A DNA stretch of 64,000 nt from Escherichia phage vB_EcoM_NBG1. The notes beneath the pieces are model-generated. The model worked only from the letters and a program-made list of their open reading frames with translations, was not told the DNA's origin and did no database searches. Positions 11,368 to 44,597 of this stretch are shown here, piece after piece. The stretch lies in the sequence record MH243438.1, one strand, 5' to 3'. Numbering within the stretch: the stretch's first letter is position 1; each line of letters opens with the position of its first letter. The translations under genes and the position numbers were made by a program.

Positions 11368-11546
11368 GACTTAATTTCCTTCGCAATTGAACAGAAGATA
11401 CCACGGTCACAAAGCATTTCACCAATTTCTGGATATTTGATTGAACGGTACCAAACATCCAGGCTTGAAACTTTGGTTATCTGTATTGCATTACCGTTGA
11501 CAGAATAGTACTGGTCAACCTTAATTTCTTTATCTTCAATTGTCAT
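11364..11546 (-). CDS. hypothetical protein
   Basis: 60-aa ORF with GAGGAAAATAAA-ATG initiation region. Confidence 0.45.
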   Translation of the reverse strand: MTIEDKEIKVDQYYSVNGNAIQITKVSSLDVWYRSIKYPEIGEMLCDRGIFCSIAKEIKS

Positions 11547-11679
11547 TTTATTTTCCTCTATAGTAAGATGGTGTTAATCTTAACATATCTATCGAGGATG
11601 TAAACTGGTTTTATGAAAATATTTTTGATTTGAGAGGGGCACAAGGAGATAGTGAAGTGAAGATTCCAATGGATTATAT

Positions 11680-26061: not shown

Positions 26062-26221
26062 ACATTTGCAATTCGGAGTGGGCGATGGTCATCTTTTTCA
26101 TAGCTCTGTTAATGTCGATGTCTCCATCTTCGCAACCATGAGCATTTTCCCAATCAGATACCGCATTAGCGTACTCTTCAATCAAAAACATTAACTTTGA
26201 AATCTTTTCTTTACGCGTCAT
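26042..26221 (-). CDS. hypothetical protein (59 aa)
   Basis: Start reassigned to MTRKEK downstream of GAGGAG; longer track ORF would include its own promoter and terminator. Confidence 0.45.
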   Translation of the reverse strand: MTRKEKISKLMFLIEEYANAVSDWENAHGCEDGDIDINRAMKKMTIAHSELQMYVNEIM

Positions 26222-26277
26222 AATGTTCTCCTCTAGTAAGTAAGGACTACTATAACACAACCTGAGGAGAAGTAAAC
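26222..26277 (-). promoter_or_regulatory. Early promoter/Shine-Dalgarno cassette (near-copy of regB cassette)
   Basis: Minus strand GTTTAC-TTCTCCTC...TATAGT...CTAGAGGAGAACATT-ATG. Confidence 0.45.
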
Positions 26278-29414: not shown

Positions 29415-29873
29415 CTAGATTTTAATCACTGCTTTAGAAGCTTTTCCTGGTAGTCGTTTACTGTTAATAATAGCCATTCTGCATTGAAGAGTCTTCATTT
29501 TGAATGCCGGATTTTCGCGACAAACTGTAAGTCCTAACCAAAGATTTCCGTCAGTTATTTCTAAACGGCCTGGACGATACTCGACACCTTCGACAAAATC
29601 TTCATCAACATCTGGACGTGCCGGCATTGATAAAAATTCTGCAACTTCTTTAACGTGATTTTTTACTTTATGAAATAATTCAAAAACGTAATTCTCATCT
29701 ATTTCTCTCTGGATGGCACGATCTAAGAGATGTTGAGAATACTTGATATGAAAGCCTGGTAGTCCAAGAGACTTTGCAGCATCTTTTATACCGGCATTTA
29801 TTTTGCGGAACTCCGTTTCAAAGATTCGACGGAGTTTATTACGGCGGATAAAAACTTCCGAATTGATAGTCAT
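29415..29873 (-). CDS. regB: RegB endoribonuclease
   Basis: MTINSEVFIRRNKLRR...LKYSQHLLDRAIQREIDE...RPGRLEITDGNLWLG...QCRMAIINS.RLPGKASKAVIK matches T4 RegB. Confidence 0.85.
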   Translation of the reverse strand: MTINSEVFIRRNKLRRIFETEFRKINAGIKDAAKSLGLPGFHIKYSQHLLDRAIQREIDENYVFELFHKVKNHVKEVAEFLSMPARPDVDEDFVEGVEYRPGRLEITDGNLWLGLTVCRENPAFKMKTLQCRMAIINSKRLPGKASKAVIKI

Positions 29874-29880
29874 TTTGATT

Positions 29881-29930
29881 TCTCCTCTAGTTGACAAGTC
29901 TATAGTAACACAACTAGAGGAGAAGTAAAC
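29881..29930 (-). promoter_or_regulatory. regB early promoter with anti-SD/SD stem
   Basis: Minus strand GTTTAC-TTCTCCTCTAG-TTGTGT-TACTAT-...-CTAGAGGAGA-AATCAAA-ATG; 10-bp perfect inverted repeat. Confidence 0.55.
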
Positions 29931-32094: not shown

Positions 32095-32424
32095 TTATAC
32101 TCTAGGCTTTTGAGCTTGTTTGGTATTGGATTCCCATGCGGCTTTGGTAATTTTGTTAGCGGCATAACCAAAGGCATTAGATAGAACACCTTTAGAGTTG
32201 AATACATCCAATCCAATAAGTACACCGGCTGTGTTAAATTTAGGAGCAAAGTACGCATTAGTTTTAGAAAGAGCTTTTTTCAATTCAGGGTCTTGAACCA
32301 AGCCATCAAAAACGCCTTTACTATTTACTTTGTATGTTACTTTGGGATTTTTACCTTCTTCGATAGCAGCTTTCTGTTCCGCAGATAATGTAACTTCAGT
32401 GATAAACTCCTGATATGTTTTCAT
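32095..32424 (-). CDS. Internal-protein-like capsid protein with N-terminal targeting sequence
   Basis: Starts MKTYQEFITE, the conserved T4 internal-protein targeting sequence. Confidence 0.6.
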   Translation of the reverse strand: MKTYQEFITEVTLSAEQKAAIEEGKNPKVTYKVNSKGVFDGLVQDPELKKALSKTNAYFAPKFNTAGVLIGLDVFNSKGVLSNAFGYAANKITKAAWESNTKQAQKPRV

Positions 32425-32449
32425 TTTGTTCCTATTGTTTTAATTTATG

Positions 32450-32764
32450 TTATTCTTTAGGGAAGTTTTTAGAGTATGCATCATAAAGTTTATTACCAAT
32501 ACGACGGAAGACTTTAGCTGCAAAACGGTTTTCAGGGTTTTTAATCATGATTTGCATCATGTAAGTTCCTGCATCCGAAAGAGCTTCTTCATAGTACCCA
32601 TTAATTTCTTTAAGAGTCCTACGTTTACCACCAGGACCATCAACAGTAATTTTCCATTTACCTGTAGAAGTGCGGCTCGGTGGCTCAACTTGTTCAATCC
32701 AAATATAACCACCTTCAACGCGTTGGTTGGCGGATTCTGCAATAAATTCTTTATACGTTTTCAT
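32450..32764 (-). CDS. Internal-protein-like protein
   Basis: Starts MKTYKEFIAE. Confidence 0.6.
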   Translation of the reverse strand: MKTYKEFIAESANQRVEGGYIWIEQVEPPSRTSTGKWKITVDGPGGKRRTLKEINGYYEEALSDAGTYMMQIMIKNPENRFAAKVFRRIGNKLYDAYSKNFPKE

Positions 32765-32828
32765 TTTTTGTTTCCTTGTTTGTTTTGATAGAGTAATTAT
32801 ACCATATTAATACTTAAGCGTAAACAAT

Positions 32829-33089
32829 TTAAGCTTTACCGCCAGAAATAATTCCGAAGTTGTTAAAATCGTATCCAGTATCGTCAACATCCACTTTAGG
32901 ACTTGCTACAACATAAGCAATTTCACTACGTTTTGCATAGGTGTTGATTTCTTTACCATCGCCACCTAAGAAAGAATACCCATTACGTTTTAATGAGCCA
33001 AAGTCTTCGGCATCACCAATGAAAGCTTTAACTTTAAATTTAGGACATTTGGCATCTGCTTCAATGATAAATTCTTGATACATTTTCAT
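32829..33089 (-). CDS. Internal-protein-like protein
   Basis: Starts MKMYQEFIIE. Confidence 0.55.
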   Translation of the reverse strand: MKMYQEFIIEADAKCPKFKVKAFIGDAEDFGSLKRNGYSFLGGDGKEINTYAKRSEIAYVVASPKVDVDDTGYDFNNFGIISGGKA

Positions 33090-33095
33090 TTTTCC

Positions 33096-33509
33096 TTAGT
33101 AAATTGATTTACCATAGTATTTGTACCAAGTCGGACGTTGAGCAATTTTTTCATCTAAGCGTGCTTGACTTATCGCAATGGACTCTTCGGACGGGATGTA
33201 ATTATTACGAAATTCTACAGGAATGTCGGAAATATCCTGGACTGTCGTGTCCTTGATTTTGAAACCACGTTTCAAACATTCGGCTATTAGCTCGATTTGA
33301 CGTAAACGTAAAAATTCGAGTTTGTCGTAAAAGAATGTTACGTGACCTGTGCCTAAGATAAATGTTGGAGAGATTTTAAAATCTTTTACACGTTTACCAT
33401 TTTGAACATGTTTACGGACTGCACCAAATACGCGTGGTAATTCACGATACTCAGCCATAAGATGTTGGTCGGACAGTTCAGAAACAAGTGTTAAATTGAT
33501 ACGAGTCAT
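33096..33509 (-). CDS. denV: Endonuclease V (pyrimidine-dimer DNA glycosylase)
   Basis: [35 protein letters not shown]... close match to T4 DenV. Confidence 0.9.
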
Positions 33510-33513
33510 AATT

Positions 33514-33566
33514 TCCTCCAAGTAGTTGATAGATGTATAGTATCAAAGTCCTTGGAGGAAGTAAAC
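33514..33566 (-). promoter_or_regulatory. denV early promoter with anti-SD/SD stem
   Basis: Minus strand GTTTAC-TTCCTCCAAG-...TACTAT...-CTTGGAGGAA-ATT-ATG; 10-bp perfect inverted repeat. Confidence 0.55.
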
Positions 33567-33567
33567 A

Positions 33568-33849
33568 CTATTTTTCTGAAGCGCCTGAAATATATTTTTC
33601 AAGACGTTGTTTCATTAGCGAGCCGTTCTTAGCGATTTCTTCTGGTTTATCGCACATACGCAACAAGGCTTCAAGCTTAGCGATATCGCTGGTACGTTCA
33701 AATTTGCGAGTATCTATCTTACTAGCAAGTTCAGAAATACGTGCTAATAGACTTTCGGCTTCAACCAAAGCTGCACCTAACTTAGTTGCAAATGTGTCAG
33801 TAGCTTCATTAAGAATAGATTCTGATAAAAATTCACTATATGTTTTCAT
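33568..33849 (-). CDS. Internal-protein-like protein
   Basis: Starts [10 protein letters not shown] at internal Met of track ORF. Confidence 0.55.
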
Positions 33850-34334: not shown

Positions 34335-34362
34335 AATACCTCCCACGTTTATAGGAGGTATT
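34335..34362 (-). promoter_or_regulatory. Hairpin sequestering the lysozyme Shine-Dalgarno
   Basis: 9-bp stem AATACCTCC/GGAGGTATT; 3' arm abuts ATG; loop TATAAACGTG resembles late-promoter core. Confidence 0.55.
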
Positions 34363-34368
34363 TATTAC

Positions 34369-34827
34369 TTATAGTAGGGTAGTGAGTACCTTATATAACG
34401 ATTTGCCCATCACATATTCCCATTGAGAAGGTTTAATTAAAGCGAATGCATCAAATTCAGGAATCTGTCGTCCGTCTGGGAATGTATGATAGGAATTACA
34501 AACACTGTTTCTGAATTGCTCGTGCTCTACAGGGATGGTATATAGGAACAGATGAATATTCTTATTGTCTGAGTAATGATGTTCACCTAGGTCTTTCAGG
34601 AAGGCAGGGTCGTATTGTGTAAACCCAGTTTCTTCTTCGCATTCACGAATAGCGGCTTCAATAGGAGATTCGCCAGGTTCGACACGGCCTTTAGGAATAT
34701 CCCACCTATGAGCTAATGCACCTTTAGAACGAGAACCAGTTACACGCCCCATGAATAATTCTTTATCTTCGGTAAGGAAAATAATACCGGCTGATAGTTC
34801 TTTCACTTTATTTTTCTTACTCATCAT
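34369..34827 (-). CDS. nudE: Nudix hydrolase
   Basis: Nudix box GRVEPGESPIEAAIRECEEETGF. Confidence 0.8.
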   Translation of the reverse strand: MMSKKNKVKELSAGIIFLTEDKELFMGRVTGSRSKGALAHRWDIPKGRVEPGESPIEAAIRECEEETGFTQYDPAFLKDLGEHHYSDNKNIHLFLYTIPVEHEQFRNSVCNSYHTFPDGRQIPEFDAFALIKPSQWEYVMGKSLYKVLTTLL

Positions 34828-44520: not shown

Positions 44521-44597
44521 TTTATTTCCTTGAGGTTGTTTATTTGATAGGATGATAGTAACACACCATCATCCTTATGTAAACTGTTTTGTGAAAA

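What the first reader, a model, noticed from the sequence alone, without database searches (positions are those of the whole stretch)
33514..33566. denV promoter with the same anti-SD/SD architecture
Minus strand reads GTTTAC-TTCCTCCAAG-GACTTTGA-TACTAT-...-CTTGGAGGAA-ATT-ATG with a 10-bp perfect inverted repeat. The 3' arm contains the denV SD GGAGGA and the 5' arm lies in the promoter spacer. It has the same logic as the regB element but different arm sequence, arguing for selection on structure rather than shared descent of the sequence.
Basis: seen in the sequence. Interest (0 to 1): 0.5.

Follow-up and report, generated by a model that had tools for sequence, protein, structure and literature searches.

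The report
Promoter-embedded anti-SD hairpin at denV
The early promoter of the phage UV-repair gene denV contains a short segment that pairs with the gene's own ribosome-binding site, so RNAs reading in from upstream are probably untranslatable while RNAs started at this promoter are open; this is a conserved early-promoter version of a trick already known for T4 lysozyme.

Summary
On the minus strand a T4-type early promoter (GTTTAC, 18 nt, TGnTACTAT) sits 58 nt upstream of denV. Ten bases of its spacer (33551-33560) are perfectly complementary to the 10 bases containing the denV Shine-Dalgarno sequence (33513-33522).

A 10-bp inverted repeat alone is not unusual here: 6 are seen in the window and 3.5 are expected. 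The comparative evidence is much stronger:
- T4 and about 29 other T4-like denV loci keep the pairing with different arm sequences.
- 7 of 13 pairs change on both sides.
- Cognate promoter-to-SD complementarity beats all 20,000 permutations.
- Two geometries occur, with the anti-SD either in the spacer or in the -10/+1 segment. In both it lies upstream of the predicted start site.

Folding predicts a fully paired SD in read-through RNA and an open SD in the promoter's own RNA. The opening cost is 13.3 against 3.0 kcal/mol. The experimentally established gene e leader next door gives the same signature.

The element is one of about 20 repeated early-promoter cassettes (PeSL-like). regB and two small ORFs share the design. 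The cassettes are homologous, so "no shared descent" is wrong. It is best read as an early-promoter variant of the e/soc/49/I-TevI mechanism. The function has not been tested experimentally.

The parts
33561..33566 (-). -35 hexamer GTTTAC of a T4-type early promoter. It lies one base after the TAG stop codon (33570-33568) of the upstream internal-protein-like gene.
   Evidence: The same hexamer at the same spacing occurs in about 20 cassettes in the window and in nearly all T4-like denV loci. BLAST homology to T4-type phages starts exactly here (query position 74-76).
33551..33560 (-). 5' arm, the anti-SD TTCCTCCAAG, occupying the first 10 nt of the promoter spacer. It is transcribed only in RNAs that start upstream.
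   Evidence: Covariation with the 3' arm across phages.
33537..33545 (-). Extended -10 element TGATACTAT: TG at 33545-33544 and hexamer TACTAT at 33542-33537. The spacer to the -35 hexamer is 18 nt.
   Evidence: T4 has GTTTAC-17-TACTAT at the same place.
33526..33546 (-). Inner helix of the long-RNA hairpin: UUGAUA (33546-33541) pairs with UAUCAA (33531-33526), closing the loop that holds the -10 box.
   Evidence: MFE and centroid structures.
33530..33530 (-). Predicted transcription start (A, the 7th nt after the -10 hexamer), giving a 21-nt leader AUCAACUACUUGGAGGAAAUU. This is a prediction only.
   Evidence: Inferred from the promoter consensus. The conserved ...TATCAAC... initial transcribed sequence recurs in many cassettes. 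The accessibility result holds for starts between 33534 and 33527.
33513..33522 (-). 3' arm CTTGGAGGAA, containing the denV Shine-Dalgarno GGAGG (33519-33515).
33096..33509 (-). denV coding sequence (endonuclease V, pyrimidine-dimer glycosylase), 137 aa, ATG at 33509-33507.
33568..33849 (-). Upstream internal-head-protein-like gene (RB69ORF127c type, N-terminus MKTYSEF...). Its ATG overlaps the stop codon of gene e (ATGA). No terminator-like site lies between it and denV, so it is a source of read-through RNA.

Best explanation
The element is a transcript-isoform switch for denV translation, built into a T4-type early-promoter cassette.

RNAs that start upstream contain both arms. These include early read-through RNAs and, later, the e/internal-protein mRNAs. 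The spacer segment UUCCUCCAAG pairs with CUUGGAGGAA. An inner UUGAUA/UAUCAA helix closes the loop. The denV SD is then buried, and 30S subunits cannot load.

RNAs that start at the cassette's own promoter, about 7 nt after TACTAT, lack the 5' arm and have an open 21-nt leader, so they are translated. DenV synthesis is therefore tied to the activity of its own early promoter. It is insulated from whatever is transcribed upstream.

Shown here: the sequence layout, the predicted structure and its energetics, and conservation with covariation.
Shown in the literature: the same mechanism for T4 e/soc/49/I-TevI, early denV transcripts in T4, and early-RNA/early-protein behaviour of DenV.
Inferred: the start site in this phage, that read-through RNAs exist and fold this way in vivo, and that masking lowers DenV translation.
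For: 1. Structure. The fold is -19.9 kcal/mol with z = -3.8. SD unpaired probability is 0.000 in RNA with 120 or 400 nt of upstream sequence, against 0.33-0.47 for any start between 33534 and 33527. The cost of opening the ribosome-binding region is 13.3 against 3.0 kcal/mol.

2. Positive control. The gene e leader 800 nt upstream, whose T4 counterpart has been shown experimentally to work this way (PMC3014915), gives the same signature: 0.000 against 0.19, and 16.9 against 6.7 kcal/mol.

3. Conservation. In 29 of 30 distinct T4-like denV loci (genomes of 160-177 kb) the SD is at most 0.10 unpaired in long RNA, and mostly at most 0.02. In short RNA it is 0.2-0.8 unpaired. With shuffled upstream sequence it is 0.17-0.37. 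Jumbo-phage denV loci lack the effect.

4. Covariation. The arms differ between lineages, for example UUCCUCCAAG, UCUCCUGUAG, CUCCGUUUG and UCUCCUGUG. Seven of 13 pairs change on both sides, and shuffled and slid controls score far lower. Cognate against non-cognate pairing gives 0 of 20,000 permutations.

5. Two geometries. The anti-SD lies either in the spacer or in the -10/discriminator segment. In both, the SD's partners lie upstream of the predicted +1. That is expected if the selected property is presence in long RNA and absence from the promoter's own RNA.

6. RNA level. Lineages with imperfect arms use G.U wobbles, so the sense strand folds much better than the antisense strand. Examples are L034 at -23.5 against -14.8 and T4 regB at -22.4 against -12.5 kcal/mol.

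7. SD involvement is not forced by the cassette. Six sister cassettes in the window form strong hairpins around the -10 box that leave the SD free.

8. Context. There is no terminator between e, the IP-like gene and denV. In T4, e, ipIII and ipII are classed early RNA/late protein, while denV is early RNA/early protein (PMC9697503 supplements). T4 denV early transcripts with a promoter stop were seen at 3 min (PMC1702504).
Against: - There are no experimental data for this phage. The start site is predicted from the consensus only.
- In the window and the other spacer-arm phages the stem is pure Watson-Crick. For them the sense/antisense and RNA/DNA test is uninformative, and antisense even folds slightly better (-21.9 against -19.2 kcal/mol).
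- The short RNA is only about 45% open by prediction, not fully open.
- A ribosome terminating at the upstream stop codon, 7 nt before the 5' arm, could melt the first few base pairs. Masking on translated read-through RNA may therefore be partial.
- The PeSL literature assigns the stem-loops of such cassettes a terminator/attenuator role, shown experimentally for a G+C-rich RB49-type stem (PMC2839356). I could not exclude some pausing or 3'-end protection by this hairpin.
- One T4-like locus (L036) shows no masking, and three (L028-L030) show weak masking.
Confidence: 0.62

Rival explanations
1. PeSL-type terminator/attenuator and recombination module. The stem-loop exists to stop or attenuate transcription arriving from upstream. 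The repeated cassette also serves as a substrate for modular shuffling. Overlap with the SD would be incidental to a very compact intergenic region.
For: - The element fits the published description of PeSL cassettes: an AT-rich region, an early promoter, a stem-loop, and then SD and ATG (PMC2839356, PMC4122927).
- About 20 such cassettes occur in the window.
- Homology to other phages breaks exactly at GTTTAC, and the upstream gene differs between lineages.
- Cassette frameworks appear to be exchanged between loci: T4 denV against window regB is 75% identical.
- An RB49-type stem reduced downstream lacZ expression as strongly as rrnB T1 did.
Against: - No U-tract follows the stem in any lineage. 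The 3' arm is followed by AAUUAUG, ACACUAAAAUG or UUAAAAAUG, and the terminator scan finds nothing here.
- The loop is 28 nt and the stem is only 50% G+C.
- At denV the SD is always inside the stem, in two different geometries. Sister cassettes show that hairpins can be built without touching the SD.
- Recombination does not explain compensatory changes in the arms.
- The recombination role is compatible with the main explanation and probably also applies to the cassette as a whole.
Confidence: 0.15
2. RNA-stability or RegB-shield element. The hairpin protects the intergenic GGAG from RegB cleavage, or protects the 3' end of upstream e/IP mRNAs from exonucleases, and so stabilises polycistronic RNA. 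Control of DenV translation would be a by-product.
For: - RegB cuts GGAG in early intergenic regions and is inhibited by secondary structure (PMC3014915, PMC1702504).
- The window's SD context GGAGGAAAUUA has the G at position 5 that enhances RegB cleavage.
- The hairpin begins 8 nt after the upstream stop codon.
Against: - The T4 denV GGAG is already RegB-resistant because of the sequence 3' of it, yet T4 keeps a perfect 10-bp stem.
- regB's own SD is efficiently cleaved in vivo although its cassette has the same design. The biologically relevant regB RNA is therefore the open, short one.
- Late mRNAs are not RegB substrates.
- This account does not explain why the 5' arm always lies upstream of the predicted +1.
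Confidence: 0.1
3. DNA-level palindrome: a protein-binding site or a cruciform that affects promoter activity or replication and recombination, with no role for RNA structure.
For: The window's arms are a perfect Watson-Crick inverted repeat flanking the -10 box. For spacer-arm phages, sense and antisense folds are equally good.
Against: - Arm sequences differ completely between lineages, so there is no conserved recognition motif.
- Arm spacing varies from 17 to 28 nt, and the position of the 5' arm jumps between the spacer and the discriminator.
- Lineages with imperfect arms use G.U wobbles, which pair only in sense RNA.
- One arm is always the SD.
Confidence: 0.05
4. Chance inverted repeat between a pyrimidine-rich spacer and a purine-rich SD.
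For: Perfect 10-bp inverted repeats are not rare in the window: 6 observed against 3.5 expected.
Against: - Conservation in about 29 loci with different arm sequences.
- Compensatory changes on both sides of the pairs.
- Permutation tests with no permutation reaching the observed value.
Confidence: 0.03

Closest known systems
T4 inhibitory hairpins at translation-initiation regions with an internal promoter (genes e, soc, 49 and I-TevI; also segB and Aeh1 mobE)
   Same: The SD and/or AUG is buried in a local helix in transcripts that start upstream. A promoter placed over or inside the 5' half of the structure gives a shorter RNA that lacks the 5' arm and is translated (PMC3014915). The gene e example is present in this window 800 nt upstream and behaves identically in my accessibility test.
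   Different: - The documented cases use late promoters (TATAAATA), so translation is restricted to late infection. Here the embedded promoter is an early sigma-70-type promoter, so the timing is reversed: translation only from early, self-initiated RNA.
- The anti-SD sits inside the promoter's -35/-10 spacer, or in other genera in the -10/discriminator segment.
- denV and regB are not among the examples listed in the 2010 review.
PeSL (promoter-early stem-loop) cassettes of T4-like phages (Arbiol et al. 2010; Comeau et al. 2014), and the PeSL-like repeats at T-even internal-protein loci (Repoila et al. 1994, as cited by those papers)
   Same: A composite unit of AT-rich region, strong early promoter, stem-loop, SD and start codon. 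The unit is repeated many times, lies in variable regions including the internal-protein locus, and sits at the borders of gene replacements. The denV element is one of about 20 such units in the window.
   Different: - Published PeSL stems are compact hairpins placed within or next to the promoter, and are read as terminators or attenuators.
- Neither paper's text mentions translation or ribosomes.
- Here the two arms are separated by the -10 box and the start site, the 3' arm is the SD itself, and no U-tract follows.
Translational coupling through an SD-masking hairpin opened by upstream ribosomes (a general bacterial and phage operon mechanism, from established knowledge)
   Same: The SD of a downstream gene is paired with a segment near the end of the upstream gene's message.
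   Different: The 5' arm begins 8 nt after the upstream stop codon in the window. In the -10/+1-arm lineages it lies about 30 nt downstream of the stop. Opening by terminating ribosomes is therefore at best partial and is not a conserved feature.

Membership tests
T4-type inhibitory TIR hairpin with internal promoter (e/soc/49/I-TevI class) | SD and/or start codon base-paired in a stable local helix in the longer transcript | tested here: met
   The fold is -19.9 kcal/mol with z = -3.8. SD unpaired probability is 0.000 with 120 or 400 nt of upstream sequence, and the opening cost is 13.3 kcal/mol.
T4-type inhibitory TIR hairpin with internal promoter (e/soc/49/I-TevI class) | A promoter positioned so that its own transcript lacks the 5' arm | tested here: met
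   In silico only. GTTTAC-18-TGnTACTAT predicts +1 near 33530, which is 21 nt downstream of the end of the 5' arm. The SD's partners lie upstream of the predicted +1 in all 29 sequences examined. The TSS has not been mapped in this phage. T4 early denV transcripts were seen by primer extension (PMC1702504).
T4-type inhibitory TIR hairpin with internal promoter (e/soc/49/I-TevI class) | The embedded promoter is a late promoter (TATAAATA), giving late-only translation | tested here: not met
   There is no TATAAATA within 1 mismatch between 33500 and 34300. The promoter is of the early type. This feature is common to the documented members but is not required by the mechanism.
T4-type inhibitory TIR hairpin with internal promoter (e/soc/49/I-TevI class) | Long transcripts are poorly translated, and the arm and compensatory mutations behave accordingly | not testable with these tools
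   This needs reporter fusions, toeprinting or ribosome profiling.
PeSL (promoter-early stem-loop) cassette | Strong early promoter with an AT-rich upstream region, followed by the SD and start codon of the next gene | tested here: met
   AGAAAAATAG lies upstream of GTTTAC, followed by the extended -10 element, then GGAGG and ATG.
PeSL (promoter-early stem-loop) cassette | A stem-loop within or directly next to the promoter (five described placements, all ending before the start site) | tested here: inconclusive
   The 5' arm lies between -35 and -10 as described for PeSLs. The 3' arm, however, lies in the leader at the SD, beyond the start site. That placement is not among those described.
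PeSL (promoter-early stem-loop) cassette | Repeated in the genome, concentrated in variable regions and at gene-replacement borders | tested here: met
   About 20 cassettes lie on the minus strand of the window. Homology to T4-type phages starts at GTTTAC. Upstream genes differ between lineages. Cassette similarity crosses loci.
PeSL (promoter-early stem-loop) cassette | The stem-loop acts as a transcription terminator or attenuator | tested here: not met
   Sequence criteria only. No U-tract follows the stem in any lineage, and the terminator scan reports no site here. Functional termination cannot be tested here.
Rfam RNA families | Match to a curated covariance model | tested here: not met
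   The only hit is a sub-threshold mir-1912 match (25 bits against a gathering score of 72), and it lies over the gene e leader. Nothing matches at 33500-33570.

The most novel reading that the evidence does not exclude
Anti-SD segments embedded in early promoters may be a general insulation device of T4-like phages. Genes that move as promoter-plus-gene cassettes (denV, regB and some small ORFs) would carry a built-in lock. The lock makes their translation depend only on their own promoter, whatever locus and upstream transcription they land in. It would be maintained by compensatory evolution across genera in two interchangeable geometries. That would give PeSL-type cassettes a translational function alongside the published terminator and recombination roles.
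Probability: 0.35. Interest if true: 0.6.

Novelty: new variant of a known kind. Interest (0 to 1): 0.45.

Why it matters
If the mechanism holds, DenV and RegB synthesis in T4-like phages is gated by which promoter made the RNA, not only by when RNA is present.

This bears on an open observation from T4 omics: many genes are transcribed early but translated at other times, and neighbouring genes on the same read-through RNA differ in protein timing (PMC9697503).

It would extend the classical e/soc hairpin mechanism from late promoters to early ones. It would also give the widespread PeSL-type promoter cassettes a translational role.

Practically, it predicts that annotating or engineering these phages by moving genes without their 58-nt leaders, or with them, will change expression in a context-dependent way.

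The claim can be tested directly with existing T4 tools. Arm mutants and compensatory mutants can be made at denV, a non-essential gene.

Tried and rejected
- Generic sigma-70 and terminator scan. It reports neither this promoter nor a terminator here. The promoter miss is explained by the T4-specific -35 hexamer.
- Window-wide count of perfect inverted repeats. It showed that the repeat alone is not significant, so I moved to comparative evidence.
- Annotated T4 records NC_000866 and AF158101. They carry no promoter or regulatory features in the held copies.
- Literature. I found no description of an anti-SD in the denV or regB promoter.
- Papers not held in the library: Miller et al. 2003 (PMC150520), Repoila et al. 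1994 (PMC395341) and Piesiniene et al. 2004 (PMC524301). The 1984 denV sequence papers did not turn up in the searches either. An earlier mention of the T4 denV stem therefore cannot be excluded.
- T4 dRNA-seq preprint. The TSS table is not in the held supplement, so I could not confirm the T4 denV start site.
- Rfam. Nothing relevant.
- Sense against antisense folding as an RNA/DNA discriminator. It is informative for the -10/+1-arm lineages and T4 regB, but not for the window's own perfect Watson-Crick stem.
- Late promoter immediately upstream of denV as the source of read-through. None was found. The nearest late-like boxes are those of gene e at 34373-34359.
- Translational coupling to the upstream ORF. 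Considered and set aside, because the distance from the stop codon to the arm is not conserved.

Full report
**What is there.** The window comes from a T4-like phage of the RB69/Mosigvirus type. The best match is vB_Eco_F31 at 98-99% identity, and phage ATK48 is classified as Mosigvirus.

On the minus strand the order of genes is nudE, e (lysozyme), a 93-aa internal-head-protein-like gene (RB69ORF127c type, MKTYSEF...), denV (33509-33096), and then three more internal-protein-like genes.

The 58-nt gap between the upstream TAG (33570-33568) and the denV ATG (33509) reads T-GTTTAC-TTCCTCCAAG-GACTTTGA-TACTAT-ACATCTATCAACTA-CTTGGAGGAA-ATT-ATG. The 3' arm ends at 33513, one base beyond the stated start.

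**Is it more than chance?** The arms are a perfect 10-bp inverted repeat with a 28-nt loop. Taken alone this is weak evidence. The window holds six perfect repeats of at least 10 bp with loops of at most 45 nt, and dinucleotide shuffles give 3.5 +/- 1.8.

Locally the RNA folds at -19.9 kcal/mol against -10.1 +/- 2.6 for shuffles (z = -3.8). An inner UUGAUA/UAUCAA helix closes the loop. The decisive evidence is comparative.

**Comparative evidence.** T4 itself has the same layout with different arms: GTTTAC-A-TCTCCTGTAG-GTATGA-TACTAT-...-CTACAGGAGA-ACACTAAAATG.

Among 36 T4-like denV loci from IMG/VR plus T4, nearly all keep a GTTTAC early promoter abutting denV together with a segment complementary to the SD region. 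There are two geometries:
- In the spacer-arm class the anti-SD directly follows the -35 hexamer. This class includes the window, T4 and the L004, L009, L024, L017, L019 and L014 groups.
- In the -10/+1-arm class the anti-SD runs from the last bases of the -10 box through the discriminator, and pairs with the SD plus the bases down to the start codon. This class includes L006, L011, L012, L013, L023, L028-30, L034 and L036. An example is L023, AUGUCCUCCUA / UAGGAGGACAU.

Partition-function folding gives three results:
- The SD is at most 0.10 unpaired (mostly at most 0.02) in RNA carrying 120 nt of upstream sequence, in 29 of 30 distinct T4-like loci.
- It is 0.2-0.8 unpaired in RNA starting at the predicted +1.
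- It is 0.17-0.37 unpaired when the upstream part is shuffled.

Jumbo-phage denV loci have a different terminator-promoter arrangement and show no effect. Cyanophage-type denV genes overlap the upstream gene and have no leader at all.

**Covariation.** I paired each lineage's promoter segment (-35 to -1) with each lineage's leader. Cognate duplexes average -14.6 kcal/mol against -9.3 for non-cognate ones, and none of 20,000 permutations reaches the cognate mean.

I then aligned the arms using only the invariant CUCC/GGAG core as anchor. Seven of 13 pairs show changes on both sides; the pair next to the core, for example, occurs as G-C, U-A and A-U. Overall 77.5% of cells pair, against at most 48.7% when partners are slid. 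The covariation score is 0.41, against 0.16 +/- 0.03 in shuffles (0 of 500) and 0.04-0.15 when slid.

This alignment is anchored on the core by construction, so the core pairs carry no information. The signal comes from the flanking pairs.

**RNA or DNA, and which strand?** Where arms are imperfect, the mismatches are G.U wobbles in the sense strand. The sense RNA then folds far better than the antisense RNA:
- L011: -12.2 against -5.9 kcal/mol
- L013: -21.1 against -15.7
- L034: -23.5 against -14.8
- T4 regB: -22.4 against -12.5

For the window and the other spacer-arm phages the stems are pure Watson-Crick, so this test cannot discriminate. In all 29 sequences the bases that pair with the SD core lie upstream of the predicted start site: -21 to -15 relative to the end of the -10 box, or +4 to +8 with an A at +7 to +9.

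**Mechanism.** The stem can form only in RNA that starts upstream of this promoter. Such RNA is expected for three reasons:
- Gene e has late-promoter-like boxes at 34373-34359.
- The IP-like gene's ATG overlaps the stop codon of e (ATGA).
- Nothing terminator-like precedes denV.

In T4, e, ipIII and ipII are classed as early RNA but late protein, while denV and regB are early RNA and early protein (PMC9697503 supplements). Early denV transcripts with a promoter stop were seen at 3 min by primer extension (PMC1702504).

I therefore propose that read-through RNAs carry a masked denV SD, and that only RNAs made from the cassette's own early promoter are translated. In the window, the predicted cost of opening the ribosome-binding region is 13.3 kcal/mol in long RNA and 3.0 in short RNA.

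The neighbouring gene e leader serves as a positive control. Its hairpin is ATACCTCC/GGAGGTAT with the late-like boxes over the 5' arm, and the T4 counterpart has been shown experimentally to block translation of long RNAs about 100-fold (PMC3014915). It gives 16.9 against 6.7 kcal/mol and the same 0.000 unpaired probability in long RNA.

**Relation to regB and other cassettes.** The window has about 20 GTTTAC-N17/18-(-10) cassettes on the minus strand. They fall into three groups:
- Four mask their SD only in long RNA: denV, regB (a 14-bp perfect stem, 29924-29911 with 29893-29880), and cassettes at 26277 and 11605 upstream of 59- and 60-aa ORFs.
- Six have 10-13-bp hairpins straddling the -10 box that leave the SD free.
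- The rest have no strong structure.

T4 regB has a 15-bp anti-SD/SD stem with two wobbles and different arm flanks from the window's regB.

The cassette frameworks are homologous. T4 denV against window regB is 75% identical, while T4 denV against window denV is 59%. BLAST homology between phage lineages begins exactly at GTTTAC, and the upstream gene varies.

This matches the published picture of PeSL cassettes as mobile promoter units at the borders of gene replacements, including the internal-protein loci (PMC2839356, PMC4122927).

**Rivals.**
- A terminator/attenuator role, which is the PeSL reading, is weakened by three points. No U-tract follows the stem in any lineage. The stem has a long loop and moderate G+C. 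The SD is always included at denV, although sister cassettes show this is avoidable.
- A RegB-shield or mRNA-stability role is possible but does not explain why the anti-SD always precedes the start site. The T4 denV GGAG is RegB-resistant for sequence reasons anyway (PMC1702504).
- A DNA palindrome is disfavoured by the absence of a conserved motif, by variable spacing and by the wobble asymmetry.
- Chance is excluded.

**Novelty and limits.** The principle of a promoter inside an SD-masking hairpin is established for the T4 late-translated genes e, soc, 49 and I-TevI. Those are the only examples listed in the 2010 review. The PeSL papers describe the cassettes but never discuss translation. 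I found no description of the denV or regB early-promoter version.

Several key older sources were not available: Miller et al. 2003, Repoila et al. 1994 and Piesiniene et al. 2004. The 1984 denV papers did not turn up either. Prior mention of the T4 stem therefore cannot be excluded.

I rate it a new variant of a known kind: an early promoter, reversed timing, and two interchangeable geometries. The evidence for selection is strong, but there is no functional test. The start site, the in vivo fold and the effect on DenV synthesis are all inferred.

Noticed in passing
window 34336-34373 (minus strand): The gene e (lysozyme) leader carries the classical SD-masking hairpin ATACCTCC (34361-34354) / GGAGGTAT (34343-34336). 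Late-promoter-like boxes TATAAGTA and AATAAATA overlie the 5' arm. This is the RB69-type version of the T4 e element, and I used it as a positive control.
   Followed up: partly
window 29871-29930 (minus strand): The regB leader is GTTTAC, TTCTCCTCTAGTTG, TGT, TACTAT, ..., CAACTAGAGGAGAA, ATCAAAATG. It forms a 14-bp perfect anti-SD/SD stem. SD unpaired probability is 0.001 in long RNA against 0.73 in short RNA. T4 regB has a 15-bp version with two G.U wobbles and different flanks.
   Followed up: partly
window about 26219-26277 and 11544-11605 (minus strand): Two more early cassettes, upstream of 59-aa and 60-aa ORFs, have spacer segments (TTCTCCTC; TCCTCGATAG) that pair with the SD. SD unpaired probability in long against short RNA is 0.165 against 0.72 and 0.003 against 0.49. 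The ORFs were not identified.
   Followed up: no
window cassettes starting at 44584, 44229, 38153, 36861, 25828, 21657 (minus strand): Six early-promoter cassettes have strong 10-13-bp hairpins whose arms flank the -10 box, pairing the spacer with the first transcribed bases (for example GATAGGACTA/TAGTCCTATC). The SD stays free. These look like the T-even PeSL stem-loops. Their function is unexplained, since no U-tract follows them.
   Followed up: partly
window 32095-33849 (minus strand): Four small genes with MKTY(Q/K/S)EF(I/L) N-termini, the capsid-targeting sequence typical of T4 internal proteins, surround denV: 33568-33849, 32829-33089, 32450-32764 and 32095-32424. In this phage, denV is therefore embedded in a polymorphic internal-protein locus.
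   Followed up: no
window 33565-33567; loci L004-L037: BLAST homology between this phage and T4-type phages begins exactly at the GTTTAC hexamer. The gene upstream of the denV cassette differs between lineages: an IP-like gene, ipII, gene e directly, or others. The left edge of the promoter therefore behaves as a recombination junction.
   Followed up: partly
window 33846-33849 (minus strand): The start codon of the IP-like gene overlaps the stop codon of gene e (ATGA). This suggests translational coupling of an internal head protein to lysozyme, and no separate promoter for the IP-like gene.
   Followed up: no
loci L026, L027, L031, L032 (jumbo phages, 346-378 kb): denV in jumbo phages is preceded by a different composite. 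A G+C-rich hairpin whose arms include TTGAC...GTCA overlaps a TTGAC -35 box and is followed by a T-run and then TATAAT. This is a terminator-promoter overlap much closer to the RB49-type PeSL, and it gives no SD masking.
   Followed up: no
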